Both the position numbers and the translations under genes were made by a program. DNA of 64,000 nucleotides from IMG/VR virus record IMGVR_UViG_3300025127_006147, positions 96,001 through 160,000 of that record; one strand, given 5' to 3'. This document shows positions 28,631 to 57,580 of the stretch, piece by piece. The first letter of the stretch is position 1. Each line of letters begins with the position of its first letter. This stretch comes from a virus. Below the pieces are notes generated by a model. It was not told the DNA's origin and made no database searches. It worked only from the letters and a program-made list of their open reading frames with translations.

Positions 28631-29398
28631 ATGAATGCATTAGACCAACATGAAAAAAATATGAAAAGAATGATTAACAATGTTAGTCAAGAACTAGGAC
28701 CTAGAAAGGGAATTGAAGCCGTTAAGTCAAGAGACGAACTTATGAAAGTAGCTGAAATTGGTGAAGAGATTAACAAAGAGGAAGAAATGGATGAAGTGAC
28801 TAGTGCTGGTTCCGCTGGAGCTTTTGTAGCTCCTATGGGTTGGAATAATGATACTGGTATGAGTAAACCTCAAAACGAAGAAGAACTGGATGAGATGACA
28901 GGAAGTGCTTCAGCAGGTGCTTACTCCCAACCAGCTATATGGGCAAAAAATAGAAAAAATTGGAGAGCTGTTAGTGACCCCAACTTCCCTAAGTATGGGG
29001 GACCAGGAGCTAAATATGTTAGAGTAAAAGAAAAATGTAGAAAGTTCCCGTATTGTAATCAAGGAGATATAAACGCTTTAGAATTTTACGAAGATAAAAA
29101 TTTACAAGAAGCAATTAAAGTGGTTTCTAAAAAAACTAATAAGTCAGAAAATTATATAAAAAATATAATTCTACAAGAAATGGAAAGCATGTTTAAAAAA
29201 GACATGAAAAAATACCAGACAGAAAAAATGAAACCTTATAAAAAGAAAAAGAGTAAATACACCAAACAAGAAGTAGAAGAAATGATTAGAAGAGGTTTTT
29301 ACCACTCTCCTATCACATCATTGGTGGGTAACTTTAAAATGAATAAACCTATAGGTCAAATTTATTCTATGAAAGGTAATAAACCTAAGTACGAATAG
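28631..29398 (+). CDS. Hypothetical protein with a duplicated (M/L)DE-x-T-S(A/G)-SAGA motif
   Basis: EEEMDEVTSAGSAGAFVAP and EEELDEMTGSASAGAYSQP; KCRKFPYCNQG; LQEA and ILQE sites. Confidence 0.55.
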   Translation: MNALDQHEKNMKRMINNVSQELGPRKGIEAVKSRDELMKVAEIGEEINKEEEMDEVTSAGSAGAFVAPMGWNNDTGMSKPQNEEELDEMTGSASAGAYSQPAIWAKNRKNWRAVSDPNFPKYGGPGAKYVRVKEKCRKFPYCNQGDINALEFYEDKNLQEAIKVVSKKTNKSENYIKNIILQEMESMFKKDMKKYQTEKMKPYKKKKSKYTKQEVEEMIRRGFYHSPITSLVGNFKMNKPIGQIYSMKGNKPKYE

Positions 29399-35570: not shown

Positions 35571-35635
35571 TAAACATATTATAGAAGTATTTATTACATA
35601 GAAGTGATATTTATAATTAAACAATAAATCTAGAA

Positions 35636-37000
35636 ATGAGTTTTACAAGTTTATTAAACGAGGTTAGAGAGATATTAGAACAAGAGTTATCACGTTTAGA
35701 CGTGATGATGGATAGATATGCAAAACCTAAAAAGAAGGCGAGTGGAAAAGTAATCCCAGCAAAAATACCAGAAGATATACTAATAAAATTAATCATTGCA
35801 GACCCTACTAGTAGACACGAGGGTGACACCGAAGGTGTAGACCCAGATGTGATGGATAATATACAAGTCCAAAAAGTAGGTAAGTATGTTCAATGGATAA
35901 TTAAACAATGGTTAGGATTACAACAAAAAGCTCAAGAGGAATACCCTTATGACCCAAAACCTAACTCACCATTCCAAGGTAAACTTAACCAATTACAAGA
36001 ACTATTTTTAGAAGACCTTTACAAAACAACTGAAGATTTAATTAAGTTTGATAGATTTAAATCACAAATAGATGCGAGTAAAAGAGATATTAATAAGATT
36101 ACTTCTACTGATGAATTGTATGATTTAACCAAAGATTTTTCATTAGAAAAAGCCACCACTAGTAAAGCGGAACAAAAAGAAAAAAGAAAACGTGAAGAGG
36201 TTGATTATGTTTACGATGGGAACAGATGGGAAGTAGTTGTCCCAAAAACTAAAGCGGTGAGTTGTGATATGGCAGGTGCACCTTTAACTAGATGGTGTAC
36301 AGCTTCCGACAATTGGAATTACTATGAAAGATATTCAGGACAAGGTCCTTTATACATGATTAGAGATAAGAATGATATTGTGACTAGTGGAGGTAAAGGT
36401 GAAGGTGAACCACGACCTAAATACCAATTCCATTTCCCATCCAATCAATATATGGACCAAGATGATAGAAGTGTTAACTTGGAACAAATGTTACAAGATG
36501 GTGGGGAACTTAGTGAGTTAAAACAATTCTTTAAACATGAATTTGCAAAAGCACTTAACAAAGACTTTGGTGACCAGGTACAAATAAACTACCCTAATGA
36601 CCAAGTATCTAGATTCATAGGTCTATATGGTTTTGATGAATTTTTTGATAAACTTCCACAATCATTAAAAAGATTTGATTTTGAAAAAGGTAGAAGTGGA
36701 TACGGTAGAGACGACCAAGACTTACCAGCAACACCTCTTCATCCTAAAGTTTTAAATTTCCCTAACTTAGAGGTATTACATATTGAAGGTTTACTTAGTG
36801 AGTTACCAGAAGATATTAATAGATTACAAAATCTAATGTTTATTTCTATACCTAATAATCCAGAATTAAAAACACTACCAGAATCATTAGCAGACTTACC
36901 AGCCTTACAAGTTTTAAATATTAGAAACAATCCTAAATTACAAATAGGTCCTAGAGTTCAAGCGATGATTGATAGTGGTGATGTAACTGTAGTACAGTAA
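35636..37000 (+). CDS. WCT-domain protein with C-terminal leucine-rich repeats and an LxE leader
   Basis: MSFTSLLNEVREILEQE; VPKTKAVSC...TRWCTAS...GPLYMI; LRRs LEVLHI..LLSELPEDINRLQNL..I and LKTLPESLADLPALQVLNIRNNP; TATTTATA at 35608-35615. Confidence 0.65.
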   Translation: MSFTSLLNEVREILEQELSRLDVMMDRYAKPKKKASGKVIPAKIPEDILIKLIIADPTSRHEGDTEGVDPDVMDNIQVQKVGKYVQWIIKQWLGLQQKAQEEYPYDPKPNSPFQGKLNQLQELFLEDLYKTTEDLIKFDRFKSQIDASKRDINKITSTDELYDLTKDFSLEKATTSKAEQKEKRKREEVDYVYDGNRWEVVVPKTKAVSCDMAGAPLTRWCTASDNWNYYERYSGQGPLYMIRDKNDIVTSGGKGEGEPRPKYQFHFPSNQYMDQDDRSVNLEQMLQDGGELSELKQFFKHEFAKALNKDFGDQVQINYPNDQVSRFIGLYGFDEFFDKLPQSLKRFDFEKGRSGYGRDDQDLPATPLHPKVLNFPNLEVLHIEGLLSELPEDINRLQNLMFISIPNNPELKTLPESLADLPALQVLNIRNNPKLQIGPRVQAMIDSGDVTVVQ

Positions 37001-39566: not shown

Positions 39567-41252
39567 TTATCTATATTTAATTCTAAGTAACTCACCTCTA
39601 GTCCAAGGTTCGTAATTAGGACCTAAGGTATAAACAAACTGTCTACCTTTTCTATCCATTTTTACTATGCCAGAGTCGTTTATAACTGCAAAGAATTCAG
39701 AGTTGTGACCTGGAGTATAAGTTCTACCAATAGAATCATAAAATTCTTTTCTGGTTTTACCAGGGTTGTTCTTAACGAAGTCTACAAATAATTGAGTTAA
39801 TGAACCTTCTTTAGGTGGGTATTTAAAAGTTAAAGGTGTTCTACCTCTCATAGGTTCCCAAGTCTTACTATCTTTTGTAGTAAGGTCTTTAACTTCCGGT
39901 CTAGATAAAAGAAACCTTAAGTTTCGCAATAGGACTCCATTTAAGAAAGCTTTTTCTGGGAAACCTCTATAGTAGTTATTCTGATACCTATCATTATCTA
40001 AGAACCTCTCTTTGAATTCATCCCGAGGAGGCAAACCTAACTTTATTCCATCAGTTTCTCCATCAATTTCATAATAGCCAAGATTATTACTGGCAGCTAC
40101 AATATGTCCAGGAAGAAGTCTAAAATACCAACCTATATCTTCCGCTAAGTCGTTCTCTGCTGTGGGTTCTATATATCCATTAAAATCGGAAACAATAATT
40201 TCATATTCCGTGTCGTTAAACACCTCAACAGAAAATTTATATTTATTATCTCCGATAGGACTTACGTACCATTCATTACGACCAACCACTTCAAGTTCCC
40301 ATGGACCACTTTCCGTGTTAAATTTAATTTTCTCACCTTGTAATTTATCTGTGATTAAATTAACAAATTCATTAAGACTTTTGTATCTCTTAAAGTCTAA
40401 CACTTCCGAATAAGAATCTAATTCTTTTTTATATAAATCGTCAATTACTTGAATAGCCTTATCTGGTAACATAGAACTAACTATGGATGCTGTCCTACTA
40501 TCTAATAGATTATCTTGCATATCATACCACTGGTCATCAGGTGCCCTACCTAGTACTCTTCTATTTGTTCTATAATCAGTGCCTAATTTAGGTAATTCCT
40601 TATAAAGTGCTATTTTATAATCCTTACCAGATTGTTTTTTTATGACATAATATAACACACCCTCGTTATTATATTTATTAAAAAATGACATATCTTTTGA
40701 TGTTGTACACCATTTGGTACCTGCACCGTAATAACAAGAAGCACCATGACTTTTAGGTCTAATAATTACCCAGTTATCATCTTCATATACCTTATCAACC
40801 TCCGACTTAAGCATTTTCTCTTTATCTTTTCTAGTCATTATAGATTCTACTTCATCCATAAGTCTTTCTAATACCGCTAAGTCATCATAAGAGTCTATGT
40901 TTTTTGGAGCCTTTATCATCTTCTGATTAACATCCATAAATGGTAATTGTTCTATAAGTTCAGGTGTCATTCTAGGTGAGTTAATGTCGAACCTCATAGC
41001 TAGAGACGATATGTCTATAGGGCTTGTGGATTGTTCGTCAATGTACCTTTTAACCATCCACAAAAGATATTTCTGGTTATTTGAAGGGTCCGAATTAACA
41101 AAATGTTCTAAAACAGATTCTAAATTAGTTCCCACACCAATCCCAGCTGGATTACCTGGTTCTGCAACAGGCCAAGACCCAACAGCTTTTTCAAAATATT
41201 GTTGTGCGTCTTCTACTCTCCCTTCTAATAATATGTGTTTATTAAATCTCAT
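39567..41252 (-). CDS. WCT-domain protein with an LxE leader
   Basis: MRFNKHILLEG; RPKSHGASCYYGAGTKWCT; the C-terminal ~70 aa look like a winged helix (PGKTRKEFY...MDRKGRQFVYTLG). Confidence 0.6.
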   Translation of the reverse strand: MRFNKHILLEGRVEDAQQYFEKAVGSWPVAEPGNPAGIGVGTNLESVLEHFVNSDPSNNQKYLLWMVKRYIDEQSTSPIDISSLAMRFDINSPRMTPELIEQLPFMDVNQKMIKAPKNIDSYDDLAVLERLMDEVESIMTRKDKEKMLKSEVDKVYEDDNWVIIRPKSHGASCYYGAGTKWCTTSKDMSFFNKYNNEGVLYYVIKKQSGKDYKIALYKELPKLGTDYRTNRRVLGRAPDDQWYDMQDNLLDSRTASIVSSMLPDKAIQVIDDLYKKELDSYSEVLDFKRYKSLNEFVNLITDKLQGEKIKFNTESGPWELEVVGRNEWYVSPIGDNKYKFSVEVFNDTEYEIIVSDFNGYIEPTAENDLAEDIGWYFRLLPGHIVAASNNLGYYEIDGETDGIKLGLPPRDEFKERFLDNDRYQNNYYRGFPEKAFLNGVLLRNLRFLLSRPEVKDLTTKDSKTWEPMRGRTPLTFKYPPKEGSLTQLFVDFVKNNPGKTRKEFYDSIGRTYTPGHNSEFFAVINDSGIVKMDRKGRQFVYTLGPNYEPWTRGELLRIKYR

Positions 41253-42624
41253 TCTATCCTATTCTATAAATATAAAACCATTCACCATCATAGACTATTT
41301 CATTTTCTTCACCATCATAACCAGCAAGACCATTTCCTCTTCCATCAGAAGATATGACTTCTCTAACAAATTCATCTTCATCTATAAAATGTGTAATATC
41401 TAATTCGTACATTTGGATATATTCCATGGGGTCATTTCTAATCTCATCCAATTTGTATTCCACAGCTTGGTCTATAGCATCCTCAGTCCATTCATAACTG
41501 TCCTCGTCTTCTATAATATCTTGTTTTTGTTCTTCTAATGCGTCTATTTGGTCTTGGATGTATTCTTCGTCTGATTCTCTATCAACCTCGTCTAACTCTT
41601 CCAGATGTTCTCCTATTTGTTCATCTATTGCTTCTATTTGTTCTTTATAATATGCTATCATCACTCTATCATCCTCTTCATCTAAATAACTTTCAGGACT
41701 TTCTTCAACATCTTGTCTAATATAATCTTCTACATAGTCCGCAACCTCATCACCATTTACGTGGGATTCATAGAACCATGAATTAAAACCTTCATACCCG
41801 ATATCGTCAACTAAGTTTCTTACTTGTTCCTCAGCAGCTTCATCCGCTTCATCATCATCACCTACAGCATATTCAGCTCCATCGTACTCAAATATAGGCA
41901 TTTCACCATAGTGAGTAGTTCCTTCATACATAATATCATAAACTGTAGAAATATTTTCCCTTTCTTCTTCTAGTTCTTCCTCTAAATTATTTAAATCCAT
42001 CCCATAATCTTGAGCTCTTTCCCCATTAGGGTTTTCTATAACTTCAGGGTCATTTTCCATATCACTACGAAGGTCTCTAATTTGTTCCTCTAAGTACTCG
42101 ATTTCGTCACTGTTGTCCGACCACTCACCTTCATCTTTTAGGAATTCCATTAATGCGTTAGCTCTTATACCAACGGAGTCAGTATCTTCAGGATTCCACT
42201 CCTCATTTTCTCTTCTTAATTCTGCTTCAGCATTTAATCTAGCTATTCTTTCTCTTCTACGTTGAGCCCATTCATTTTCTCTCGCCTGTCTCTCCAGTTC
42301 CCTAGCTTTTACTTCTGCACCTATTTTATCTATTTCCTCTTTATATGTGTATTCGAAAAAACTTTCTATCGCACTCATTAAAGGATGTTCTAAAATATAA
42401 TCTATATTTGTTGTATCACTAATTAAATTATCAGGTGCGTCATAAAAACTTTTACCTCCCGAATATTTTCTATTTAAAGCTACTTTATAGTAGGGGTTAG
42501 AAGTAGGTAATGTTTTATCTAGTATGTAAAAAAGTTTACCTTCTTGATTATAATTTTTAAATTGATAATCACTATCTTTAGCTGCTGTACACCATTTGGT
42601 ACCCGCACCATAATAACAAGAAGC
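40704..42624. repeat. Pair of 39-nt near-identical segments in paralogous WCT genes
   Basis: 40704-40742 and 42586-42624 differ at 2 of 39 positions, both synonymous, and encode ASCYYGAGTKWCT. Confidence 0.8.
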
Positions 42625-43002
42625 GTCATGAGATTCTGGTACCACAACTTTAAAACGGTCATCCTCGTAAATAACTTCAGATTGTTCATGAGTCTTAATA
42701 ACTCTTTGTCGTTTTTTTAAATTATCTAAAGCATCATTAAGGTCAGTGTAAGAATTATAAGAGTATAAATCTTTTATCTTTAAGTTATTTCGTTTCCTAT
42801 CGAAAGCTTCTACCGCGTCTAATACCATTTCTAAATAAATGACATTTTGTACAATAGAGTTCATATAATCTCTAGCTATCCACTCCAAATATTTTTGATT
42901 ATTTGCTATAGCACCACTACCAGTTACCATCTGGTCCCAGACATCTAAAGGTACGTTGTACTTTTCTTTTACTCTTGAAATTCTATTTTCTACTAGTAAC
43001 AC
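41254..43002 (-). CDS. WCT-domain protein with a highly acidic C-terminal half
   Basis: GTG start (M)LLVEN; PESHDASCYYGAGTKWCT; D/E-rich C-terminus ending HFIDEDEFVREVISSDG...FYIYRIG. Confidence 0.6.
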   Translation of the reverse strand: MLLVENRISRVKEKYNVPLDVWDQMVTGSGAIANNQKYLEWIARDYMNSIVQNVIYLEMVLDAVEAFDRKRNNLKIKDLYSYNSYTDLNDALDNLKKRQRVIKTHEQSEVIYEDDRFKVVVPESHDASCYYGAGTKWCTAAKDSDYQFKNYNQEGKLFYILDKTLPTSNPYYKVALNRKYSGGKSFYDAPDNLISDTTNIDYILEHPLMSAIESFFEYTYKEEIDKIGAEVKARELERQARENEWAQRRRERIARLNAEAELRRENEEWNPEDTDSVGIRANALMEFLKDEGEWSDNSDEIEYLEEQIRDLRSDMENDPEVIENPNGERAQDYGMDLNNLEEELEEERENISTVYDIMYEGTTHYGEMPIFEYDGAEYAVGDDDEADEAAEEQVRNLVDDIGYEGFNSWFYESHVNGDEVADYVEDYIRQDVEESPESYLDEEDDRVMIAYYKEQIEAIDEQIGEHLEELDEVDRESDEEYIQDQIDALEEQKQDIIEDEDSYEWTEDAIDQAVEYKLDEIRNDPMEYIQMYELDITHFIDEDEFVREVISSDGRGNGLAGYDGEENEIVYDGEWFYIYRIG

Positions 43003-43044
43003 AGTTTTCTTTTTATTATAAATACTTATTAAAAGACTTATATT

Positions 43045-43608
43045 ATGGATAAAAGTAAATCATATATTATCGGATTTACCATCACCTTATTTTTCGTATT
43101 GTTAATGGTAAATCAAAATTCAAACAGCAACTCCAAGGAACTTACCTATAAACAGACTTATGTAGATTCTTTAAAGTATGAAATACAGTTAAGAGACTCT
43201 TTAATTAAAGATTTTAAAAATTATATACCTATTGGTTCTCCTTTAGATAGTACTAAAATTAATAGTAAATACGGTTGGAGATGGGGAAGAATGCATCAAG
43301 GAGTAGACCTTAGAGGTAGGTATAGAGATACAGTGTTCTCAACAGCCGCAGGGGTTGTAGTAGAAGCGAAACGTATGGGTGGTTACGGTAAGTGTGTAAA
43401 AATAAGTCATAACAATGGTTATCAAACACTATATGCACATTTAAGTAAAATATTTATTAAAAAGGGTGACATAGTAAAAGACTCAACAGCTATCGGAAAA
43501 GTGGGTAATACTGGTTTTAGTACTGGGTGTCACTTACATTACGAGATAATTAAAGACGGTGAAAAAATTAACCCAGAAGAATTACTTTACAAAGAAATAG
43601 ATAACTAG
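43045..43608 (+). CDS. M23 family peptidase with an N-terminal TM anchor
   Basis: HQGVDL (HxxxD), YAHL and STGCHLHYE (HxH). Confidence 0.9.
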   Translation: MDKSKSYIIGFTITLFFVLLMVNQNSNSNSKELTYKQTYVDSLKYEIQLRDSLIKDFKNYIPIGSPLDSTKINSKYGWRWGRMHQGVDLRGRYRDTVFSTAAGVVVEAKRMGGYGKCVKISHNNGYQTLYAHLSKIFIKKGDIVKDSTAIGKVGNTGFSTGCHLHYEIIKDGEKINPEELLYKEIDN

Positions 43609-44039: not shown

Positions 44040-45149
44040 ATGGGTATGAAATTACTTCATACAATACAAACCCTAGTAGAACAGGAAGGACAACCTTTTT
44101 GGGTTAAACAAGCACTCGATAGTTGGGATTGGGATGACATTCACGACACTCTTAAACTATTTGGTGGTGACCTACATGAATATTACAAAGCTTTAGAGAG
44201 TAGAGGTTTCGGTGAAGACTTTTTAAATCAAATAACTCATTGGGAAGAATCTCCAAATTACTATATCACACAAGCTTTAGGTGGTAGAGACGCTTATAGG
44301 AGGGGTCTAATAGATGAAGACTTACTAGTAAAGTATGTAGTAGATAATATAGTAGAGAATGAGATTAGGGATTTAAAAAAATACGAAACTGGTAAGATAT
44401 ACCTTACTTTAGACATGTATAGTAAACCTGATTTTTTTGAGAAAGATTCATATGACCGTATAAGTTGTGAGGAAACCGCAAGATTAGTATTTGAAGATAC
44501 TTTGTGGGAAAATTGGGAGAATACGGATACCTGGACACCTAACCTAGATGGGTTACTTGAAAATTTATCACCACAAAATTACAAAAAATTAATATCTAAC
44601 ATCTTAAATAATCACCAAACGTTAACTTGTTTCAGAGAAGAGTTTGAGTCTTGGGTAGAACAAGACAATATTGGTGAAGATACTTTTTATGTAGATGTTT
44701 CTAGAATGAATTGGTTTTTAAATGACCCAGATAGATATAATTTCGAAGTATTACTTGGTTGTGCGGAAGAGTTAGAGGATTATGTAGATGAAATGAAACG
44801 AAGTTATCAAAGAGCTTATAATGATGAATTATTGTCGATTTACTACAATCAATACCATAAGGATTTAGAAAGGTTACTAGGTAAACCTGTAGGTAAAGAT
44901 AAAACCTATGACTACAGAGGAAAAGAAAAAATTGAACTTGAGGCAGATGTTTATGAAGTTACAGATTTGGTAAATAAAATATTAATTGAGGCCGCTTTAA
45001 GTGGAGAAGAACTACAATACTCGGAGTTTGGTGAAATATATAGAGATTTAAATAGTGGGGGTGGATTATGTCCAGGTCATTTTGATGACGTTTATGACGA
45101 TGAAAAACTTTGGGAACAGTACAATGAACGATTTAGTGAGTATTTATAG
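44040..45149 (+). CDS. Acidic hypothetical protein with an LxE leader
   Basis: MKLLHTIQTLVEQE; D/E/Y/W-rich; TATTTAT immediately upstream. Confidence 0.6.
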   Translation: MGMKLLHTIQTLVEQEGQPFWVKQALDSWDWDDIHDTLKLFGGDLHEYYKALESRGFGEDFLNQITHWEESPNYYITQALGGRDAYRRGLIDEDLLVKYVVDNIVENEIRDLKKYETGKIYLTLDMYSKPDFFEKDSYDRISCEETARLVFEDTLWENWENTDTWTPNLDGLLENLSPQNYKKLISNILNNHQTLTCFREEFESWVEQDNIGEDTFYVDVSRMNWFLNDPDRYNFEVLLGCAEELEDYVDEMKRSYQRAYNDELLSIYYNQYHKDLERLLGKPVGKDKTYDYRGKEKIELEADVYEVTDLVNKILIEAALSGEELQYSEFGEIYRDLNSGGGLCPGHFDDVYDDEKLWEQYNERFSEYL

Positions 45150-45162
45150 TTAAAACAAAATT

Positions 45163-45999
45163 ATGGAACTCAAAAAGATTTATTTAGAGAGTGAGGAGTA
45201 TTATCATGACATAGTCCCTAAAAAGACAATATACTTACATCACACAGCTGGTAGTCACAGACCTGATTGGACTGTTGCTAACTGGGAAAGAGACAAGACC
45301 AAAAGTGGTGGAGTAAGACACATCGCTACTGCTTATGTTATCGGTGGTAAATCAACCAGAGACGGTAATACTAAATGGGATGGTACTGTCATAGAATGTC
45401 ATCCACCAGAAAAGTGGGCACATCATCTGGGAATCAAAGCAAGAAACAATAGAACACTAAATAAAGAAAGTATTGGTTTAGAGATATGTAACTATGGTCC
45501 TATTAAAGTTAAAGATGGGGAGTATTTCAACTACGTTAATAGTAGGGTACCTAAAGAAGATGTTATTGATTTAGGATTCACCTTTAAGGGTTACAGACAC
45601 TACCATGCTTATACAGACGCACAAATAGAATCTACAAGACAACTTATACATTACCTAAGTGATAAATTTGATATTGATATTGCTAAAGGAATGAAAAGAA
45701 TCATCAACAAATCTTTAAAGATGCCAGAAGATTTAGATTTACTAGGAAAACAAAAATGGTTAAACATTCAAGGATATCTAGGAGCTAACGGTAGGGTATT
45801 AGCGGAAGATGGTGTAGATGGAAGAAATACACAATACGCTGTAGATTCTTATCTTCATGACAAAAAAGGAGATGCTTTTGCATTGAATAAACAAGCTTTA
45901 GTTGGAGCGGAAGGAGTATGGACACATACTAATGTAAGAAAAGATAAATTTGATTTATCCCCACAACCTAAGTTAATTGAAATGTTAAGTGAATTATAA
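45163..45999 (+). CDS. N-acetylmuramoyl-L-alanine amidase with an inserted peptidoglycan-binding motif
   Basis: YLHHTAG, WAHHLG, SIGLEICN, YTDAQI, WTHTNVRKDKFD; insertion LAEDGVDGRNTQYAV. Confidence 0.85.
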   Translation: MELKKIYLESEEYYHDIVPKKTIYLHHTAGSHRPDWTVANWERDKTKSGGVRHIATAYVIGGKSTRDGNTKWDGTVIECHPPEKWAHHLGIKARNNRTLNKESIGLEICNYGPIKVKDGEYFNYVNSRVPKEDVIDLGFTFKGYRHYHAYTDAQIESTRQLIHYLSDKFDIDIAKGMKRIINKSLKMPEDLDLLGKQKWLNIQGYLGANGRVLAEDGVDGRNTQYAVDSYLHDKKGDAFALNKQALVGAEGVWTHTNVRKDKFDLSPQPKLIEMLSEL

Positions 46000-46752: not shown

Positions 46753-46941
46753 ATGCTAATAGTAAAAGTACAAAAAAACAACATAGATAGAGCCATCAAA
46801 CAGATGAGGAGAAAAGTAATTAATACACAACTCCTAAAAGAGTGTAGAAAAAGAAAACACTTTACCAAACCATCAATCATCCGAAGAGATGAAATTCAAA
46901 AAGCAAGTTACGTACAAAAAAAGTTTGGAGACGAAGATTAA
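46753..46941 (+). CDS. rpsU: Ribosomal protein bS21 (phage-encoded)
   Basis: MLIVKV...NIDRAIKQMRRKV...LLKECRKRKHFTKPSIIRR; TATTTATA at 46724-46731. Confidence 0.88.
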   Translation: MLIVKVQKNNIDRAIKQMRRKVINTQLLKECRKRKHFTKPSIIRRDEIQKASYVQKKFGDED

Positions 46942-49900
46942 GATTCAAACATGGTAGGACTTTGTACATAAGTTACAAAATCCTCAAATGATTTAACATA
47001 CCTTTCTTGATTCATACGACTGTCGTTTCCTACGTTCTCCCTTACCTCCACGTCAAAAACAATAGTTTCGTTCTCAGTATCTATTTTTCTAATACCCACT
47101 TTCCTATCTGGTTTATTGGGGTTACCATACTTTTTACTAAAGTTATATATACCCCAGTCATGAGATTCAAATTTTTCTTTCGTTAAATAATCATTAACCT
47201 TTTTTATAAAATCTTTTCTTCTTTCTATATCCACGTCATCTATTTTTTCTAAAAAGCTATCAATTTCAGATTCAACATTTTCTTCTGTTCCTTCTGACCA
47301 CTCATATGTGTCATAATACACATCCTGAGGTTCAGTAGGGATGTAGTTGATTTGTTTATCTTGACTAAAGAGTGTATCTAAAGTACCACCCTCTGAAGGT
47401 AAGTTTTCACTAACAAGATAAAGTAAAGGTTCCCAACCTATATGTATTCTTACACTGTCTCCTCCTATATGGTCATATTCTAAAAATATTTCATTTTTGA
47501 AGAATTGTTTCATTTCTTCTACTCTACTTTCACCAACACCTTTACCTACTTCATATAATATATCTGGAGCAGCGTTGTCCCATTCTGTAGGAAAGTACTT
47601 TTCAAAAAAGTCATTTATTTCCCCATCTTCAAATTGATGACACGGTCTATCTATAGGTTTGTCGGTACCCTCTATTAGATTCATTAACTCGGTTACTTTT
47701 CTCAATTGACTATCATTAAACCAACAAGACATATAATTTAATTCGTCATCATCTATCTCCTCATAATAATCACTATAACCATAATCATGAGCTAAATTAT
47801 AATAATATTCACCATCACCAATTACTAAAACGTTTTGTATCCAGTCATCTTTTTTTAAATAAACGTTAATTCCGTCAGGAACAATCTCTATTTCATCTTC
47901 ACCCCCTCGAGTGTAATAACTTTCCGTATAAGGTTCAAACTCACCATAATATTCTTCTAAATCTGCAGGGTCACCATTATTATTAATTATATTGTATATA
48001 AGTTCACCCAATTTACTATGTTCTTTACCGTCCAATAAAACATCTTCATCAAATTCCATATTGTATTTAATTCTTTCAGGTAAACTATATTTTACATGAA
48101 AGAACTTTTGTAATTCTTTTTCTTGACTTAGGAGTTCTTTAAGATTTTCCACCATACCATTAGTATTATACATATACTTCTGACTCTTAGGTTCACGTAA
48201 AAAAGGAATTTTACCTCTATCTATAAGTAAAAGTTGGTTAGGGCCACCTATTCTAACAGGGGATGAATCTTTTTTAAATTCAATAATATAAGGAGTTCCC
48301 ATACTTGCTTGACTCTGTAAAATTGTATTTAAGGACTCACAATATTTAGTGTTTGGTATATTACAAATACCATCTTTGTCAAGTGGTACATATATCCTGT
48401 AATCTTCGTTATCCAGGACCACCTTTTTACGTATGTTTACTTTATTATCTGTTTGTTCATATAAATCTTCACCTCTTCTAAAACCAGGTCTTAATATCCA
48501 CTCGTCCGAACCTTCACCACCTACCATTGTGATTTCTGGACCGTCACCATCTATTGGCATTATGTTATAAATTCTCTTGTCATAATTCGGTAAACCCGAT
48601 TTTGGCACTTTGGGATGATACCGAACACCAAAATTCCATCCAGTAACTACGTATGGTTTGAATAACTCCATGTGTTTAGATGAACCAAGAGATTTGTGGA
48701 TTATTATAATTTCATCACCCACATCTAATGTCATGTTTTTTTTTAAATCTTTAGATTCTTGTAAAGACTCTTTACCATACCTTTCTGTAATATCTTTTAA
48801 AAGTATATCATAAAGTTGTTCTCCTTCTTCATTACTTAACCCATGTCTTAGTTTTGTATTCTCTACAGAACCTCTAATGACTTCCTCGAAGGACCTACCT
48901 TGTTTTATTCTTCTTGCGTTAAGACCAGAAGTCTGTGCATCGATTTCATGGTCTTGAGTATAATATGGTAAACCTTTTAAATCTTCTTCAGTTTCTCCAG
49001 GGTGAGTACCCATAACTTCTTGTTCCGCATGTCTAATTTCATGCCTAATATATTCAGTTAAGTAATCTTCTATATGTGTATAACTTTCAGGTTCCATAAG
49101 TGGATTGATAATTAAACCAATCTCTATTGTATCATCACCAGCGTAATAAGCATCTATATTAAATTCATCTTCTATCTCTTCATCTCTACCAAGAGTTAGT
49201 TCTAAGGTGAATGAATAATTTTCTATTGCATAAAGCATTTCATCTGGTCTTAGGTCTTCAGGTAAAAAGTAAGTCTTAGTTTCTGGTTCAGTAACTGTGT
49301 CCTTAACAACTTTCATAACGTCATCAACCATCATTAAAGTTTCATTATAAAAATCAGTTTGTTCGTTTAAGTTATCTCTACCTCTATCTAATGATTTTAA
49401 TTTACCACCTAATTTCTTTATTATATGATTAAACACATTTTTAAATCCTATTATGCCCACACCTACAAGAACACTTTTTAAGTAACCTGTGGGTGAACCA
49501 GGATGTATGAGACCCTGATTTATTAAGAAAAGTAAACCATCTAATATAGGGAAAGCTAAAAATGTAAAAGCTACTACATCAGCTAATGAGTTAGCTGTAT
49601 AACCTAAGGATTCACCTATTTTAATCGCTATATCTTCAACCGATTTTAAGAAATCTAAAACTACAGACAGTCCTTTAGTAAGTCCTTTTTCTCTTATAAT
49701 ATCCATAAGTTTTTGAACTTTATCTTTATGTCTCCCCACCAAAATCCACATAGCTGTTATGTACAGTAAGATTACATCTTGTTCAGTTAAAGTAGGCATT
49801 GTTCCCGACATTAACTCTTTAACCGCGGGTAACATAGCTGTAATACCAGTTCCGAAAGTAAAGGTACCATCTATAACATCACCCAAATCCATTAAGGTTT

Positions 49901-49982
49901 TTTTAACTACAGAATCTTTTTCCTCTATCTTTTCTAAAATTAATCCTTTTTGATTAACACTATTGATTAAACTGATATTCAT
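46938..49982 (-). CDS. Multi-module protein: helical module, HExxH zincin, SH3-like, degenerate WCT and acidic modules
   Basis: Modules are separated by GLILEK, NLNEQ, SLQES and DLYEQ; YIRHEIRHAEQE plus YYTQDHEIDAQ. Confidence 0.6.
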   Translation of the reverse strand: MNISLINSVNQKGLILEKIEEKDSVVKKTLMDLGDVIDGTFTFGTGITAMLPAVKELMSGTMPTLTEQDVILLYITAMWILVGRHKDKVQKLMDIIREKGLTKGLSVVLDFLKSVEDIAIKIGESLGYTANSLADVVAFTFLAFPILDGLLFLINQGLIHPGSPTGYLKSVLVGVGIIGFKNVFNHIIKKLGGKLKSLDRGRDNLNEQTDFYNETLMMVDDVMKVVKDTVTEPETKTYFLPEDLRPDEMLYAIENYSFTLELTLGRDEEIEDEFNIDAYYAGDDTIEIGLIINPLMEPESYTHIEDYLTEYIRHEIRHAEQEVMGTHPGETEEDLKGLPYYTQDHEIDAQTSGLNARRIKQGRSFEEVIRGSVENTKLRHGLSNEEGEQLYDILLKDITERYGKESLQESKDLKKNMTLDVGDEIIIIHKSLGSSKHMELFKPYVVTGWNFGVRYHPKVPKSGLPNYDKRIYNIMPIDGDGPEITMVGGEGSDEWILRPGFRRGEDLYEQTDNKVNIRKKVVLDNEDYRIYVPLDKDGICNIPNTKYCESLNTILQSQASMGTPYIIEFKKDSSPVRIGGPNQLLLIDRGKIPFLREPKSQKYMYNTNGMVENLKELLSQEKELQKFFHVKYSLPERIKYNMEFDEDVLLDGKEHSKLGELIYNIINNNGDPADLEEYYGEFEPYTESYYTRGGEDEIEIVPDGINVYLKKDDWIQNVLVIGDGEYYYNLAHDYGYSDYYEEIDDDELNYMSCWFNDSQLRKVTELMNLIEGTDKPIDRPCHQFEDGEINDFFEKYFPTEWDNAAPDILYEVGKGVGESRVEEMKQFFKNEIFLEYDHIGGDSVRIHIGWEPLLYLVSENLPSEGGTLDTLFSQDKQINYIPTEPQDVYYDTYEWSEGTEENVESEIDSFLEKIDDVDIERRKDFIKKVNDYLTKEKFESHDWGIYNFSKKYGNPNKPDRKVGIRKIDTENETIVFDVEVRENVGNDSRMNQERYVKSFEDFVTYVQSPTMFES

Positions 49983-50022
49983 TTAATTTCTTTTACTAAT
50001 AAATATAATCTTAAAACTATTT

Positions 50023-50370
50023 ATGTATATGGAATTATCAATAAATAGAAAGACTATACCAATAGAAGTAATGGAGACTCCTAGTCAGAAGAGTTTAGGG
50101 ATGATGGGTAGAAAAAAATTGAATGGTGGTATGTTATTTACTTTCCCAGAAATACAGGAACAATCTTTTTGGATGAAGAACTGTCTAATTCCATTGGATA
50201 TACTTATGTTGGTTGATAATAAAGTAACTAAAATTCATTCTAATTGTCCACCTTGTACTAGTAATCCTTGTAAACATTACCAAGGAATTGGTAACAAAGT
50301 TTTAGAATTGAATGGAGGTGAGTGTAAAAAGTTAGGCATTAAAATAGGGGATGAGTTAGAATTTATCTAA
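50023..50370 (+). CDS. DUF192 family protein
   Basis: EVMETPSQKSLGMMGR, GMLFTF, SFWMKNCLIPLDI and VLELNGG. Confidence 0.85.
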   Translation: MYMELSINRKTIPIEVMETPSQKSLGMMGRKKLNGGMLFTFPEIQEQSFWMKNCLIPLDILMLVDNKVTKIHSNCPPCTSNPCKHYQGIGNKVLELNGGECKKLGIKIGDELEFI

Positions 50371-52276
50371 GTTCCTTACCTATTTTATTAAGTAATTCGT
50401 GAGCTAAACCAACATTTTCCATAGCTTTAACTACATCACTTTTCCCAATAACAGGAATCTTATCTAATAAACCTCTTAACTTATCTAAAATTCCAGGTAC
50501 CTCATCTATAGCTAATCTTTCAAGACCTTGTTCACCTACAAAAGCTGCGAAGTCACTAATACCTGTTGGGTCAGGAGCCAGTTGAATTATTCTGGAAGTT
50601 AAATCCAAAAGGTCAGAAGTCACAGTAAACATTTCTTTTTCTATTGTTTTAAGGTCTTTAGCTGTAGGATTATTTTTAAATTTATCTAGAGCTATTTCTA
50701 AATCAGTATTATGTTTTTTAACCTCATAAATATTTTTACCTATTAAGGCGACCATGACTGGCATACCTACCACACCTGTTGCTCCTATAGCTGCAGCACC
50801 CAAATCACCTAACGCGTCTGAAACAAAAGAAGTTTCTAAAAGAGTATTTTTTATATTATGTTTAATTTCATTAATAGAACTCTGTTCTATTTTTTCTTTA
50901 AGTTTTTCTACCATTTGTTTCTGTACCCATTTAACAAACTCTACATAACGAGTTGTTTGACCAGCTTGTTTTCGGTAAGACCCTTGTGGATTTCTGGTAG
51001 CTCTTGAAAAGAAATTAAGTCCACTTACATTAGTTATACATTTATGTCCACCACTATTAGCCTGAATTACGTCCCAAGCAGATACAGTTATATTATCTAA
51101 AATTTGTTTTTGTTCTTCACTTAAATTTTGCCATGGTGTGTCAATAATTTTTACAGCTTCACTGTAGTAAGGTGAGTTCACGGGTGGCATGTTATTAAGT
51201 TTGTCTTTATATAAAGCAAACAAATCAGATGTTTTGAAACCTATACTACTTTCATCAGCTTTAGTCTCACCTATTCTTTTTATTACTGAAACAGGTACTT
51301 GATTTTTCTTAAGTTGAGGTTCGATACCACCTAATACTTCTTGAGCTATATCAGCTAAGTTAATTCCCTTTAAAGCTCTGTCTTTCTTAAACGGGTTACA
51401 TGACGCTTGTACCAATCCCATAGGCCAAGCTATAACTAAAAAGTCAGCATCTGGATATATTTTAAAAGGTGTATAACGGTCATACGACCCTGGTTTAAAA
51501 AGACTACCTCCACCATATTGTACTATAATATTATCCTCTAAAGTTAGATTATCACTTTCTTCTTGTGATTTAATATATTCTTGTTGATTAACCTTCATTT
51601 GTTCTGGACTAGCAAAATTTCTATCTCCAGCTATCGAGTTAATGTTATGAAAAATATTCATTAGTGAAGGTGATGACCTATCAACTAACGCTTCTAAGAA
51701 TCCTGGTTTATTTTTGTAAGCTAATAATAACTTGTTTGTTAAAAGAGCTAACATCCATTTATTACTAGGAACAGTACCATTAGCGTCAAACTTTTTAATG
51801 TAATTCATAACATCGTCTGGAGTTAAACCGTGTTTTGCATAATCAGCACTATCTACAGTAGATATTCTCATCACATCATCACTTGTAAAAATATCTTGGG
51901 GACTCACTATTTGTGAAAGAGTTTCCACGTTGGACCTAGCTCCTCTAAATTGAGTCGAAGTGTCTCCCTCAACACCCGATTGACTATCATGATGGTCAGT
52001 ATGTATAGTGAACATAGGTTTACCATGAGCAAAATCTACCAAAACCTGCATTGTGTCTCCTTCAGCTTTAGGTTTAGCTACAGAAAATTCTTTATCACCG
52101 TATTGAATAACATGAGTATCTACCACATCTATACCATACTTTTCTAAGTATTCTTTCATTGCTATTGCAGATACTACACCATCTAAGTCCTGGTGAAAAT
52201 AAATTTCAGCTTTAGGATATCTTTTAGCTATCTTATTAATATCCTGTATTCCACTTTCTTTAATTATCTTTTTCAT
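50363..52276 (-). CDS. DHH-family phosphoesterase with an LxE leader and an appended C-terminal module
   Basis: YFHQDLDG, VLVDF, TDHHD and DHHA1-like SGGHK; MKKIIKES leader; a second module after SINE...TLLETS. Confidence 0.7.
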   Translation of the reverse strand: MKKIIKESGIQDINKIAKRYPKAEIYFHQDLDGVVSAIAMKEYLEKYGIDVVDTHVIQYGDKEFSVAKPKAEGDTMQVLVDFAHGKPMFTIHTDHHDSQSGVEGDTSTQFRGARSNVETLSQIVSPQDIFTSDDVMRISTVDSADYAKHGLTPDDVMNYIKKFDANGTVPSNKWMLALLTNKLLLAYKNKPGFLEALVDRSSPSLMNIFHNINSIAGDRNFASPEQMKVNQQEYIKSQEESDNLTLEDNIIVQYGGGSLFKPGSYDRYTPFKIYPDADFLVIAWPMGLVQASCNPFKKDRALKGINLADIAQEVLGGIEPQLKKNQVPVSVIKRIGETKADESSIGFKTSDLFALYKDKLNNMPPVNSPYYSEAVKIIDTPWQNLSEEQKQILDNITVSAWDVIQANSGGHKCITNVSGLNFFSRATRNPQGSYRKQAGQTTRYVEFVKWVQKQMVEKLKEKIEQSSINEIKHNIKNTLLETSFVSDALGDLGAAAIGATGVVGMPVMVALIGKNIYEVKKHNTDLEIALDKFKNNPTAKDLKTIEKEMFTVTSDLLDLTSRIIQLAPDPTGISDFAAFVGEQGLERLAIDEVPGILDKLRGLLDKIPVIGKSDVVKAMENVGLAHELLNKIGKELR

Positions 52277-52292
52277 ATAATATAAATATTAA

Positions 52293-52910
52293 TTAGTTAT
52301 CTACACAACCACCATCTCTACAAAATAAATCTGCGGTTTCGTTTTTTCTTTCAGGATGACCCCAATCTAAATCATTTCTAATCCAAGATTGAGCACTTTT
52401 AAATTTACCAGTTTCAATTTTAGATATCCCTTGAGTCCTTATAAATGCAGAACAACCTAAGTTGTATGCAATATCTGACATCGCTATATACATACTAGTA
52501 GTTAATTTTCTTTCATTATGGTCTTTATCAGTCGCACGATTTTGCCATCTTTTAATACAGTTAGCCGCTTCTTGGATATCAGGTTTACTTAATTTTTCTG
52601 CCTCACTAACACTCATCGTTTTGTTCATGTAAGTTTTAATAACAGCAGGGTCAGTGGTTCCCCACCCTATAGTTAAAGTACCATATGTAGTTCCTCCAGT
52701 ATACTTAGGAGGCATTTTCATCTTTTTGTGTTTATTATAAACCCACTTTACTTTATCATCATAAACATAAGGTATGTGGTTACCTTTAACGTCCCCTTCA
52801 TTTCTTCTTAAATAATCAAATATTGGTTGTCCCGCAGACTTTTTATTCCAGTCATAAAAATTAACGGACTCCTGTTCGATTAATAAAGTAAGTTGATTTA
52901 TAAGTTTCAT
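52293..52910 (-). CDS. Lysozyme (GH24/T4L-like) with an LxE leader
   Basis: LRRNEG...YVYDD...TLTIGWGT...DIAYNLG; MKLINQLTLLIEQE; no signal peptide or SAR domain. Confidence 0.75.
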   Translation of the reverse strand: MKLINQLTLLIEQESVNFYDWNKKSAGQPIFDYLRRNEGDVKGNHIPYVYDDKVKWVYNKHKKMKMPPKYTGGTTYGTLTIGWGTTDPAVIKTYMNKTMSVSEAEKLSKPDIQEAANCIKRWQNRATDKDHNERKLTTSMYIAMSDIAYNLGCSAFIRTQGISKIETGKFKSAQSWIRNDLDWGHPERKNETADLFCRDGGCVDN

Positions 52911-55663: not shown

Positions 55664-57580
55664 ATGAGTAAAAAAACCACAAAATGGGAAACAATTTTTA
55701 AAGATGTAGACGAAAAATTTGAACTATTATCTTATGAAGACAGTAATTTAATTCCCACAGACAATAATCAAAACGAAGAAGAAGAAGTGTTTGCCTTGAA
55801 TGGTAATAGAGTAATCACTCGACCACTTAGTGACCAGTGGGCAAAAAAAACTAGTGTACCTTACGTGCAAAAAAAAGATGTTAAGGGTATAAAACATGTG
55901 GAGGTGGGGTTCTTTACACCTAAAAGTGATATCCAATTTATAGGGGAGAAAGAGTGGTTAGAAAAATCTGTGGACATACTCAATAGTGCTTTGGTTAGGA
56001 GAACAACACTAGTCTTAGAAAAAAATGAAGATAAGATTAAATTATCTCTATTTAATTTTTGTAAAAGTAGAAGTGTCGGTCATAGGTATTTTGCTAAACA
56101 AAGTAATGACATTCACATTACCTTTAATTTAAAAACTAAAAACTTTTATATAACTACTTCTACTTTTGTTAATAGACGTAAAAGAACTAGTACAACCAAG
56201 AACGATTTTTCAAAAATTATAAACATAATTAACCCTTTAAAGTTCATTAATACATTTGGTGGGTTAGTACACCCCACCCAAACTACAGCAAGTAACTCAT
56301 TTTATCCGCTACATCGACCAACACCCAAAGTAGAACCCATAAAAGCGTTGATAGAATTAGTAGAAGAATTAGATGTGGATATTAGTGTGGTTCCACATGA
56401 TATCAATTCCCCCTCTGAACTATTAAGTCAAATTATTGTAAAATGGTTTGTTAAAGTATGGGGAATTAAAACTTCCAACGATTACACTTATTATTTACTC
56501 AAACATTATCCTGGGATTAAAAAGTTAAGAAAATATGATATGAACTTAATTCATACTATATTAGGTGAAAGAGAACTTAAAGGTAAGTTTTACAATAAAT
56601 TACTTAATCTAGAACCAGAGATTAATATAACAGACCTACACTTCCTCCAAAAAACTTTAGGTGATGATGGGGTAAAAAGAATATCGACCCATCTACTAGC
56701 TTATAGTAAAAATTTTGAGGATAGTAAGTTTACTCAACCAGAACATTTAATTACTAATATTGGTTATTGTGATGAACTATCCAAGTATGAGAAAAATAAT
56801 ATAATCAATATATACAATACCTGTAAAGACCCTACACGTATTGGAGGTTTTATAGATTTACTGTTAGACCATTTTAAAATTAAAAATAAACTACAAGGAT
56901 ACGGTATTCTTAAAAAGATAAAAGCTAAAACCTTGGATAAATTTAATGAGGAACATAGTGAATGGTCTAATTTACTTCATGAATGTGAAAGAACCACACA
57001 AGTCAATTATATCTACCCTAATGATTTTATTACTCACATAGAAAAACCTATACAATTAGATGGTGATATATATTTTGTAAAAGTATTAAAGGACGATAAT
57101 GATTATTTTAAAGAAGGGCAAATACAAAATCACTGTGTACGAACTTATTTGGATAAATACAAAAGTATTATAATTTCAGTAAGAAAAAATCACGAAAGTG
57201 GGATGGAAAGAATGACCTGTGAATTTGTTAGTAATTCTGAAATTACCAACATTAGACATATTAAAGATTATTCCAACACACCAACCCTGGTTCAAGCTAG
57301 AATGAAATATAATAATAATCCAGTAGGTAATTGGGAAGTCGCTATGAAAGTTTTACGAAAAGAGTTTTTAGATTATACTTGCAAACCTAGAAATAATACA
57401 AGACCTATTATTAAAATAAGTAATAAAATGACAAACCACATTGAGACTTTAAAATATGATGTGAAGGTTAATAGGTATATAAGTGATGATGAGGTAATCC
57501 GCCAAGACCCAAATGTTACTTTACCTACAATACCTAGAGTTAGACATGAAAATTATATGAGAGATGATTTACCTTTTTAA
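55664..57580 (+). CDS. PcfJ-domain protein
   Basis: C-terminal VLKDDNDYFKEGQIQNHCVRTY...ISVR...R.T.E...LVQARMKYN. Confidence 0.75.
   Translation: MSKKTTKWETIFKDVDEKFELLSYEDSNLIPTDNNQNEEEEVFALNGNRVITRPLSDQWAKKTSVPYVQKKDVKGIKHVEVGFFTPKSDIQFIGEKEWLEKSVDILNSALVRRTTLVLEKNEDKIKLSLFNFCKSRSVGHRYFAKQSNDIHITFNLKTKNFYITTSTFVNRRKRTSTTKNDFSKIINIINPLKFINTFGGLVHPTQTTASNSFYPLHRPTPKVEPIKALIELVEELDVDISVVPHDINSPSELLSQIIVKWFVKVWGIKTSNDYTYYLLKHYPGIKKLRKYDMNLIHTILGERELKGKFYNKLLNLEPEINITDLHFLQKTLGDDGVKRISTHLLAYSKNFEDSKFTQPEHLITNIGYCDELSKYEKNNIINIYNTCKDPTRIGGFIDLLLDHFKIKNKLQGYGILKKIKAKTLDKFNEEHSEWSNLLHECERTTQVNYIYPNDFITHIEKPIQLDGDIYFVKVLKDDNDYFKEGQIQNHCVRTYLDKYKSIIISVRKNHESGMERMTCEFVSNSEITNIRHIKDYSNTPTLVQARMKYNNNPVGNWEVAMKVLRKEFLDYTCKPRNNTRPIIKISNKMTNHIETLKYDVKVNRYISDDEVIRQDPNVTLPTIPRVRHENYMRDDLPF

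What the first reader, a model, noticed from the sequence alone, without database searches (positions are those of the whole stretch)
46938..49982. 1014-aa protein built like a polyprotein: distinct modules joined by L-x-E-(Q/S) sites
Seen: after the leader (GLILEK) come a hydrophobic helical module, DNLNEQ, a zincin module (HEIRH plus downstream YYTQDHEIDAQ), ESLQES, an SH3-like beta module, DLYEQ, a degenerate WCT module (YRIYVPLDKDGICNIPNTKYC), and an acidic C-terminal region. Each linker resembles the N-terminal leader site of the neighbouring stand-alone genes. Inference: separate cargo genes have been fused and are released as individual proteins by the head protease, a viral-polyprotein-like strategy unusual for a phage accessory locus.
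Basis: partly seen in the sequence, partly recalled or inferred. Interest (0 to 1): 0.78.

Follow-up and report, generated by a model that had tools for sequence, protein, structure and literature searches.

The report
Protease-jointed phage cargo polyprotein
A 1014-residue protein of an uncultured marine giant T4-type phage is a string of four independent modules, each preceded by the short peptide that T4-type head proteases cut, so it is probably loaded into the capsid and cut into separate proteins, though no cut has been measured.

Summary
The ORF is real but lies on the minus strand (window 46938-49982). Every quoted motif is present.

Plain [LI]-x-E is not enriched (20 sites against 18 expected). 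L-x-E-[QS] is enriched (4 against 0.7).

Three internal sites (L205-N-E207, L407-Q-E409, L507-Y-E509) and the leader site (I15-L-E17) are the most conserved residues of otherwise variable linkers. In AlphaFold2 they fall in low-confidence segments at domain edges.

Comparative data carry the case:
- The three main modules occur alone and in about twelve other architectures; the beta module has no confirmed stand-alone form.
- One aligned [ILV]-x-E column precedes the zincin module in 49 of 51 fused forms and the helical module in 51 of 56 homologues.
- The beta module is present or absent between proteins 98-100% identical elsewhere, exactly between two sites.

This record is a 61%-complete fragment without head genes. 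Relatives, including a complete 308-kb genome, encode a T4 gp21-type protease and a gp23-type capsid protein.

Cleavage and packaging are inferred, not shown. "SH3-like" could not be confirmed.

The scan has reported the same theme, and a 917-aa orthologue, on other DNA.

Verdict: a new variant of T4-type capsid targeting and processing, akin to polyvalent proteins.

The parts
46938..49982 (-). Whole gene, 1014 codons plus stop (protein P0001)
   Evidence: All 25 homologues begin at the same Met.
49999..50005 (-). TATTTAT promoter-like motif about 20 nt upstream of the ATG
   Evidence: The same heptamer lies at -45..-12 of 38 of 189 ORFs of the record, against about 2.4 expected. These include large virion-type genes and other leader-bearing genes.
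49932..49982 (-). Leader, residues 1-17, ending in G-L-I-L-E17 (candidate capsid-targeting and cleavage peptide)
   Evidence: Q11, G13 and E17 are invariant in 26/26. It resembles the conserved N-terminus GKGIL[IV]E of the lineage's own S77 protease.
49362..49931 (-). Module A, residues 18-207: hydrophobic helical module with TFGTGI motif. It ends with site L205-N-E207 (window 49362-49370).
   Evidence: Hydropathy peak 2.37 at residues 136-154. AlphaFold2 predicts helices at low confidence. Stand-alone homologues of about 200 aa exist, and [ILV]-x-E precedes the module in 51/56.
48756..49361 (-). Module B, residues 208-409: zincin-like module with HEIRH at 314-318 (window 49029-49043) and E346. 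It ends with site L407-Q-E409 (window 48756-48764).
   Evidence: H, E, H and the downstream E are invariant in 21 sequences. AlphaFold2 alone gives pLDDT 91.6, pTM 0.89. The only fold matches covering the whole domain are gluzincins, at weak Z 4.3-5.0. A junction column [I34/L21/V5]-x-E is present in 49/51 fused forms.
48456..48755 (-). Beta module, residues 410-509: optional cassette. It ends with site L507-Y-E509 (window 48456-48464).
   Evidence: Present in 14 and absent in 12 of 26 homologues, exactly between SLQES and DLYEQ, including pairs 98-100% identical in residues 1-400. P0024 carries three copies, two of them seen bounded by L-x-E-[QN]. The fold was not predicted, pLDDT about 30.
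46941..48455 (-). Module C, residues 510-1014: WCT-like N-part (519-571, window 48270-48428), an acidic middle and an alpha/beta C-terminal part
   Evidence: pLDDT 80-95. Stand-alone homologues of 500-600 aa carry leaders MNNLNE|Q, MSINILNE|Q and MPQIFE|Q. hhalign to the neighbours' WCT domain gives 97.1%. Net charge is -49.

Best explanation
P0001 is a late-expressed capsid-cargo precursor of a T4-type giant phage.

Proposed steps, all inferred:
1. The 17-residue leader targets it to the prohead core.
2. The phage's gp21-type (Peptidase_S77) prohead protease cuts after E17, E207, E409 and E509.
3. Four separate products are released: a hydrophobic helical protein (about 190 aa), a zincin-like metallopeptidase (about 200 aa), a small beta protein (100 aa) and a 505-aa WCT/acidic protein.
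4. These products stay in the head and are delivered with the DNA.

Shown here: the modular anatomy, the conserved [ILV]-x-E junctions in flexible linkers, module shuffling and cassette gain or loss exactly at these junctions, and a T4-type protease and capsid protein in the lineage.

The products' functions are guesses. The helical module may insert into membranes, and the zincin module may be a protease acting on host targets.
For: 1. Junction conservation within the family. The four sites are the best-conserved residues of variable linkers.

2. Junction conservation across distant homologues at 25-35% identity. One aligned column triple [I/L/V]-x-E precedes module B in 49/51 fused forms (E in 58/62). 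It precedes module A in 51/56, also where A is internal. Module C follows L/I-x-E-[QS] in 5/5 fused forms and in 3 of the 4 stand-alone forms aligned from their start.

3. Modules are autonomous. About twelve architectures exist: A, B and C alone; A-B-C; A-B-beta-C; B-C; X-B; X-A; A-X and others. A and B are separate genes on opposite strands in G006.

4. The beta cassette is present or absent between proteins 100%, 98-99% and 93% identical in residues 1-400.

5. Structure. The three internal sites lie in pLDDT<50 stretches at domain edges. Most other [LI]-x-E sites lie inside helices or strands. Full-chain pTM is 0.49, against 0.89 for module B alone.

6. Lineage.
- The tail sheath is T4 gp18-like.
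- Relatives G006, G010 (complete, 308,574 bp with terminal repeats) and G011 carry gp23 at 215-220 bits.
- G006 carries Peptidase_S77 at 80.9 bits, with homologues 78-100% identical on at least 80 contigs, among them G010 and G011.
- The capsid protein has FLINE|A before the conserved core.
- The protease has GKGIL[IV]E near its N-terminus.

7. The T4 gp21 rule L/I-X-E, capsid targeting sequences and multi-site cutting are published (PMC9026906).

8. A late-type promoter motif is shared with virion genes.

9. L-x-E-[QS] is enriched genome-wide in large ORFs, 57 against 22.8 expected.
Against: - No proteomic, biochemical or structural evidence of cleavage or packaging exists for this lineage.
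- The record itself lacks protease and capsid genes, so their presence in this phage is extrapolated from relatives whose sheath is only 52% identical.
- Bare [LI]-x-E is not enriched in the protein.
- The N-terminal leader signal across the genome is modest: 15/189 ORFs, against 4% in control windows.
- Some stand-alone zincin genes, including G006's, have no leader.
- A strongly hydrophobic module and very acidic products are unlike T4's small basic internal proteins.
- No PAE was available, so independence of the domains rests on pLDDT and pTM only.
Confidence: 0.6

Rival explanations
1. Only the N-terminal leader, if anything, is removed. The protein works as one multi-domain chain, in the capsid or in the cell. 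The internal L-x-E motifs are conserved hinge or linker elements, or scars of recombination between leader-bearing genes.
For: Not every L/I-X-E in T4 head proteins is cut (PMC9026906). Many SPN3US head proteins are uncut (PMC10052503). Fusion of leader-bearing genes would leave such motifs behind without any further function. Fused architectures are stable across many lineages.
Against: The motif survives at 25-35% identity in 49/51 fused zincin forms and in internal helical modules, while the surrounding linker residues drift. That implies selection on the motif itself. Beta-minus variants keep both sites a few residues apart.
Confidence: 0.17
2. Self-processing polyvalent protein: the protein's own zincin module cuts the linkers, inside the head or after injection, as proposed for the zincin-like metallopeptidases of polyvalent proteins.
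For: HExxH and the downstream Glu are invariant, so the module is probably active. Zincin-like metallopeptidases are the hub domain of polyvalent proteins and are predicted to process them (PMC5512222).
Against: The same junction motif precedes helical and WCT/acidic modules in proteins that lack a zincin module. It also occurs in the capsid protein and the protease of the lineage. Cutting after Glu following L/I-x is the documented rule of gp21-type serine proteases, not of a known zincin. No match to Pfam MPTase-PolyVal was found.
Confidence: 0.08
3. Not capsid cargo: a membrane-anchored metalloprotease complex. The helical module acts as the anchor and the zincin module sits at the membrane, as in M48/M56 proteases. 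It would work in the infected cell, for example in envelope remodelling or exclusion.
For: One strong hydrophobic segment and three weaker ones in module A. The weak fold hits include BlaR1, Ste24 and BepA. Peptidoglycan hydrolase genes lie nearby.
Against: Modules A and B are often unlinked, reordered or separated by other modules. This reading gives no explanation for the conserved [ILV]-x-E before every module or for the leader. The fold matches are weak (Z at most 5).
Confidence: 0.1

Closest known systems
Phage T4 internal proteins IPI, IPII, IPIII and Alt: capsid targeting sequence plus gp21 processing (PMC9026906, PMC3012670)
   Same: A short N-terminal leader ending in L/I-x-E. The lineage has a T4-type protease (Peptidase_S77) and a gp23-type capsid protein. 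The genes are accessory and highly variable. Alt is cut at both ends.
   Different: Here one chain carries four unrelated folded modules, each with its own site, and the modules are shuffled between phages. The products are acidic or hydrophobic, not small and basic. Nothing has been measured.
T4 prohead core proteins gp22, gp67 and gp68, and SPN3US/phiKZ head proteins cut at several sites (PMC9026906, PMC10052503)
   Same: Several cuts by the prohead protease within one polypeptide, after Glu in a three-residue motif.
   Different: Those cuts degrade scaffold or propeptide regions into small peptides that mostly leave the head. Here the pieces are folded domains that also exist as independent genes.
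Polyvalent proteins of phages and conjugative elements (Iyer, Burroughs, Anand, de Souza, Aravind 2017, PMC5512222)
   Same: Many unrelated effector-type domains in one polypeptide, with a zincin-like HExxH domain among them. Delivery with the invading DNA is predicted. Processing into separate domains is predicted.
   Different: There, processing is ascribed to the protein's own zincin. Here the joints match the head protease's rule. No MuF, ART or other hallmark polyvalent domains were found, and no Pfam MPTase-PolyVal match.
Polyproteins of RNA viruses
   Same: One translation product is cut at short conserved junction peptides into functional proteins.
   Different: This is an analogy only. 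The protease would be a capsid maturation enzyme acting inside the prohead, and the genome has no need for polyproteins to express its genes.

Membership tests
T4-type capsid-targeted, gp21-processed head protein | The phage encodes a gp21-type (Peptidase_S77) prohead protease | tested here: inconclusive
   Not found in this record (61% complete) or in G001, its closest long relative. Found in G006 at 80.9 bits, and as a homologue of that protease on at least 80 lineage contigs, including the complete 308-kb genome G010.
T4-type capsid-targeted, gp21-processed head protein | A short N-terminal leader ending in L/I-x-E | tested here: met
   Residues 1-17 end in L-I-L-E17. Q11, G13 and E17 are invariant in 26 homologues.
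T4-type capsid-targeted, gp21-processed head protein | Expression together with head genes (late) | tested here: inconclusive
   The TATTTAT motif upstream is shared with large virion-type genes, 38/189 ORFs against 2.4 expected. There are no transcript data.
T4-type capsid-targeted, gp21-processed head protein | Presence in virions and cleavage after the Glu | not testable with these tools
   No cultured relative in the phage collection. No proteomics.
Polyvalent proteins (PMC5512222) | Two or more unrelated effector-type domains in one phage polypeptide | tested here: met
   Four modules that occur independently elsewhere.
Polyvalent proteins (PMC5512222) | Hallmark domains (MPTase-PolyVal, MuF, ART and others) recognised by profile | tested here: inconclusive
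   Pfam gave only DUF6782 at E 0.33, and PHROGs gave nothing. ESM Atlas gave leads below 0.85 to PcfJ and PBECR4 clusters.
Zincin (gluzincin) metallopeptidase, module B | HExxH on a helix and a Glu ligand on the next long helix | tested here: met
   H107, E108, H111 and E139 of the module are invariant in 21 sequences. They lie on helices 94-117 and 137-154 of the model.
Zincin (gluzincin) metallopeptidase, module B | Fold similarity to solved zincins | tested here: inconclusive
   The matches covering 125-142 residues are nearly all gluzincins: aminopeptidase N, F3, LTA4H, thermolysin, BepA and Ste24. They score only Z 4.3-5.0 with rmsd 4.4-6.0. Foldseek gave nothing below E 0.02. The profile search of PDB sequences gave BepA at E 1.5.
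SH3-like fold, beta module | A small beta-barrel fold | tested here: inconclusive
   pLDDT is about 30 over residues 408-513, with few strands predicted.
WCT domain of the neighbouring paralogues (phrog_17056 / phrog_28193) | Profile similarity over the strand-loop-WC segment | tested here: met
   hhalign gives probability 97.1%, E 5.3e-11 over 53 columns. Pairwise BLAST alone was not significant. W is replaced by Y in P0001, but relatives keep T-x-W-C.

The most novel reading that the evidence does not exclude
The [ILV]-x-E linker has two roles. It is the cutting site of the head protease, and it is the joint at which modules are gained, lost and exchanged. A single leader can then carry an arbitrary, evolvable set of effectors into the capsid in fixed 1:1 amounts: here a membrane-active module, a metallopeptidase, a small beta protein and a WCT/acidic protein. 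This would be a plug-and-play cargo system, general to T4-type phages and not yet described in print.
Probability: 0.35. Interest if true: 0.75.

Novelty: new variant of a known kind. Interest (0 to 1): 0.6.

Why it matters
If the cuts occur, T4-type phages have a general and evolvable way to load several unrelated proteins into the head from one gene. Cargo could then be recognised from sequence alone: a leader plus jointed modules in a genome with an S77 protease. This would point to hundreds of uncharacterised injected proteins in abundant marine phages. It would also offer a natural design for packaging several foreign proteins in phage capsids. The prediction is directly testable by N-terminomics or by co-expression with the protease.

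Tried and rejected
- Pfam and PHROGs on the whole protein gave nothing usable. tblastn against 50,697 phage records found no match.
- Searches of this record and five relatives' records for Peptidase_S77, and for the G006 protease protein, were empty. All are fragments.
- A weak Gp23 N-terminal hit at window 29279-29383 (E 0.008) did not look like a capsid protein on inspection and was dropped.
- Pairwise BLAST of module C against the WCT neighbours was not significant. Only the profile comparison worked.
- Fold searches with the 1014-residue model gave only weak or helical-bundle matches. BFVD returned uncharacterised viral proteins.
- The search for stand-alone beta modules of 61-195 aa found only a fragment of a close homologue. 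A 109-aa ORF next to the A and B genes of G006 is a possible stand-alone beta module, but only at hhalign probability 56%.
- No paralogues of any module were found elsewhere in this record.
The 210-262 kb contigs that carry close homologues P0009, P0012 and P0015 could therefore not be inspected for the protease.
- A literature search found no paper describing protease-jointed cargo polyproteins in T4-type phages.
Full report
**1. The object**

The finding's coordinates hold one open frame of 1014 codons, but on the minus strand. The window is part of an IMG/VR virus record of 194,481 bp with 32% G+C. CheckV rates it 61% complete, which implies a genome of about 320 kb.

The tail sheath is a distant T4 gp18 relative, closest to cyanophage and Microcystis phage sheaths. 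Pfam, PHROGs and a tblastn of 50,697 phage records give nothing for the protein.

**2. Is the motif more than chance?**

The bare T4-type motif is not enriched. There are 20 [LI]-x-E sites against 18.0 +/- 3.7 in shuffles. The narrower L-x-E-[QS] occurs four times (residues 65, 205, 407, 507) against 0.71 +/- 0.85. The motif count alone is therefore weak evidence. The case rests on position and conservation.

Among 26 full-length homologues of 37-92% identity:

| Site | Conservation |
|---|---|
| Leader | Q11, G13, E17 in 26/26 |
| Site 2 | L205 24/26, N206 25/26, E207 25/26 |
| Site 3 | L407 20/25, E409 21/21 |
| Site 4 | L507, E509, Q510 in 24/24 |
| Residues before the sites | vary, e.g. 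R200 8/26, D203 12/26 |

**3. Modules are autonomous**

A full HMMER scan of 1.84 billion representatives found 319 relatives. Most cover only one part of the query. Domain mapping gives about twelve architectures:
- the helical module A alone (about 200 aa);
- the zincin module B alone (about 190-210 aa);
- the WCT/acidic module C alone (500-600 aa);
- A-B-C, A-B-beta-C, B-C, X-B (about 320 aa, many), X-A, A-X and X-C;
- larger strings such as P0040 (1504 aa) and P0024 (1373 aa, three beta copies).

In relative G006, A and B are separate genes on opposite strands. In G010 and G011 they are separate neighbouring frames.

**4. Every module brings its own site**

Local alignments of the regions upstream of each module show one aligned column triple.

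- Module B: I34/L21/V5, then any residue, then E in 58 of 62. The triple is present in 49 of 51 sequences where at least 40 residues precede the module. Stand-alone B genes either carry a short leader ending in the same triple (MIKESLVME|S, MNLSE|G, MIEFKKNILLE|N) or start just after it.
- Module A: I23/L20/V6, then x, then E in 51 of 56. This holds also where A is internal.
- Module C: LQE|Q, LVE|Q, LSE|Q, ISE|S and LTE|Q in fused forms. Stand-alone genes have MNNLNE|Q, MSINILNE|Q and MPQIFE|Q, and one has no leader.

It comes out positive for three of the four modules.

**5. The beta module is a cassette**

It is present in 14 and absent in 12 of the 26 homologues, always exactly between SLQES and DLYEQ. 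Beta-minus P0013 is 100% identical to beta-plus P0009 over residues 1-400. P0015 and P0016 are 98-99% identical to P0014, and P0011 is 93% identical to P0008.

There were therefore at least three recent gains or losses at the same joints. P0024 carries three copies, and the two lying between modules B and C are bounded by L-x-E-[QN].

A stand-alone beta gene was not firmly found. A 109-aa ORF beside the A and B genes of G006 is only a lead, at hhalign probability 56%.

**6. Structure**

AlphaFold2 on the whole chain (150-row alignment) gives mean pLDDT 73 and pTM 0.49. Confidence is below 50 at residues 1-36, 104-131, 161-206 and 408-513. It is 85-93 over module B (212-407) and 80-95 over module C (514-1014).

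The three internal sites thus lie in low-confidence stretches at domain edges. Most other [LI]-x-E sites lie inside helices or strands. L65-T-E67 sits at a loop-helix border inside module A, and its Glu is only partly conserved in distant homologues.

Module B alone folds with pLDDT 91.6 and pTM 0.89. Its order is an N-terminal helix, a five-stranded sheet, the HExxH helix and a Glu-bearing helix. That is the order described for zincin-like metallopeptidases in PMC5512222. H, E, H and E are invariant.

Fold matches are weak. Those that cover the whole domain are nearly all gluzincins, at Z 4.3-5.0. The beta module was not predicted, so 'SH3-like' stays open. PAE was not available.

**7. The WCT claim**

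Relatives of module C keep T-x-W-C where P0001 has T-K-Y-C. A profile comparison with the WCT segments of the three neighbouring genes (window 35636-37000, 39567-41252, 41254-43002) gives probability 97.1%, E 5e-11. Pairwise BLAST had failed.

**8. Which protease?**

The record has no head genes, so the protease must be sought in relatives.

- Sheath relatives number more than 600 contigs.
- G006 (203 kb, sheath 52% identical) encodes a Peptidase_S77 protein at 80.9 bits.
- Homologues of it, 78-100% identical, lie on at least 80 contigs. One is G010, a complete 308,574-bp genome with terminal repeats.
- G006, G010 and G011 also encode a gp23-type capsid protein at 215-220 bits.
- The capsid protein reads FLINE|A just before its conserved core. 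From memory, this resembles the T4 gp23 maturation site.
- The protease N-termini conserve GKGIL[IV]E and [IL][IM][KR]ES.

The first of these protease motifs is close to P0001's QKGLILE. It parallels the LIE-9 motif noted for T4 gp21 in PMC9026906. That review documents the rule L/I-X-E, the 10-residue capsid targeting sequence of IPIII, and the multiple cutting of gp22, gp67 and gp68.

**9. Context**

TATTTAT lies about 20 nt upstream of the gene. It also lies at -45..-12 of 38 of 189 ORFs of the record, against about 2.4 expected. These include large virion-type genes and other leader-bearing genes.

L-x-E-[QS] is enriched in the record's large ORFs overall, 57 against 22.8 expected. P0001 ranks fifth. 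N-terminal leaders are only modestly enriched, 15/189 against about 4% in control windows.

**10. Reading**

The best-supported account is a capsid-cargo precursor cut by the T4-type head protease at four conserved joints (confidence 0.6).

Rivals:
- Only the leader is cut, and the chain works whole (0.17).
- The protein's own zincin does the cutting, as proposed for polyvalent proteins in PMC5512222 (0.08).
- It is a membrane-anchored protease unrelated to the capsid (0.10).

No cut, packaging or injection has been measured for any member.

**11. Novelty**

T4 capsid targeting, multi-site head-protein processing and polyvalent proteins are all published. Folded, independently occurring modules jointed by head-protease sites were not found in the literature searched.

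The scan itself has noted the same design in several other T4-type phages. It has also noted a 917-aa orthologue of this very protein in another genome. Those are unchecked notes, not independent evidence. I rate this a new variant of a known kind, interest 0.6.

Noticed in passing
whole record G000; e.g. window 49999-50005 (-), 35600-35630, 41260-41280: The heptamer TATTTAT, often (A)TATTTATA, lies 12-45 nt upstream of 38 of 189 ORFs against about 2.4 expected. It precedes large virion-type genes and most leader-bearing genes. It is likely the lineage's late promoter, and it is the reverse complement of T4's TATAAATA core.
   Followed up: partly
L097:1381-2103 (-) and loci L101-L180: The S77 prohead proteases of the lineage conserve two N-terminal [ILV]-x-E motifs, GKGIL[IV]E at about residue 17 and [IL][IM][KR]ES at about residue 37. 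The first closely resembles P0001's leader QKGLILE, which suggests a shared targeting and self-cleavage peptide.
   Followed up: partly
proteins P0028, P0030, P0032: These 734-833-aa relatives join the helical module and only the N-terminal, sheet half of the zincin module directly to module C through an L-x-E site. They lack the HExxH helices, so a catalytically dead remnant is kept.
   Followed up: no
G000:C1:177123-183146, 41609-43558, 160189-161109 (outside or at the edge of the window): Three other ORFs of the record are far more enriched in L-x-E-[QS] than P0001: 10 against 1.3, 6 against 0.5 and 3 against 0.1 expected. The jointed design is therefore genome-wide.
   Followed up: partly
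window 50363-52276 (-), 52293-52910 (-), 44040-45149 (+), 35636-37000 (+), 39567-43002 (-): Neighbouring unrelated genes start with short leaders ending in [ILV]-x-E. They are a weak DHH-family protein with a hydrophobic C-terminal tail, a lysozyme, two WCT paralogues, a WCT-LRR protein and an unknown 369-aa protein. A leaderless M23 peptidase (43045-43608) and an amidase (45163-45999) sit among them.
   Followed up: partly
L099 (G006:C1:176129-179668): In relative G006, four small genes lie side by side as separate ORFs: a possible beta module, the helical module, the zincin module and an 'HRVIKGKGDL' module. The last is fused to the zincin in P0064, P0067, P0082 and P0139. This shows the unfused state of the same parts.
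   Followed up: partly
window 55664-57580 (+): A 638-aa protein with a PcfJ-like domain (PF14284, E 3e-10) lies close to the cargo-like genes. The ESM Atlas gave a weak PcfJ lead for module C as well.
   Followed up: no
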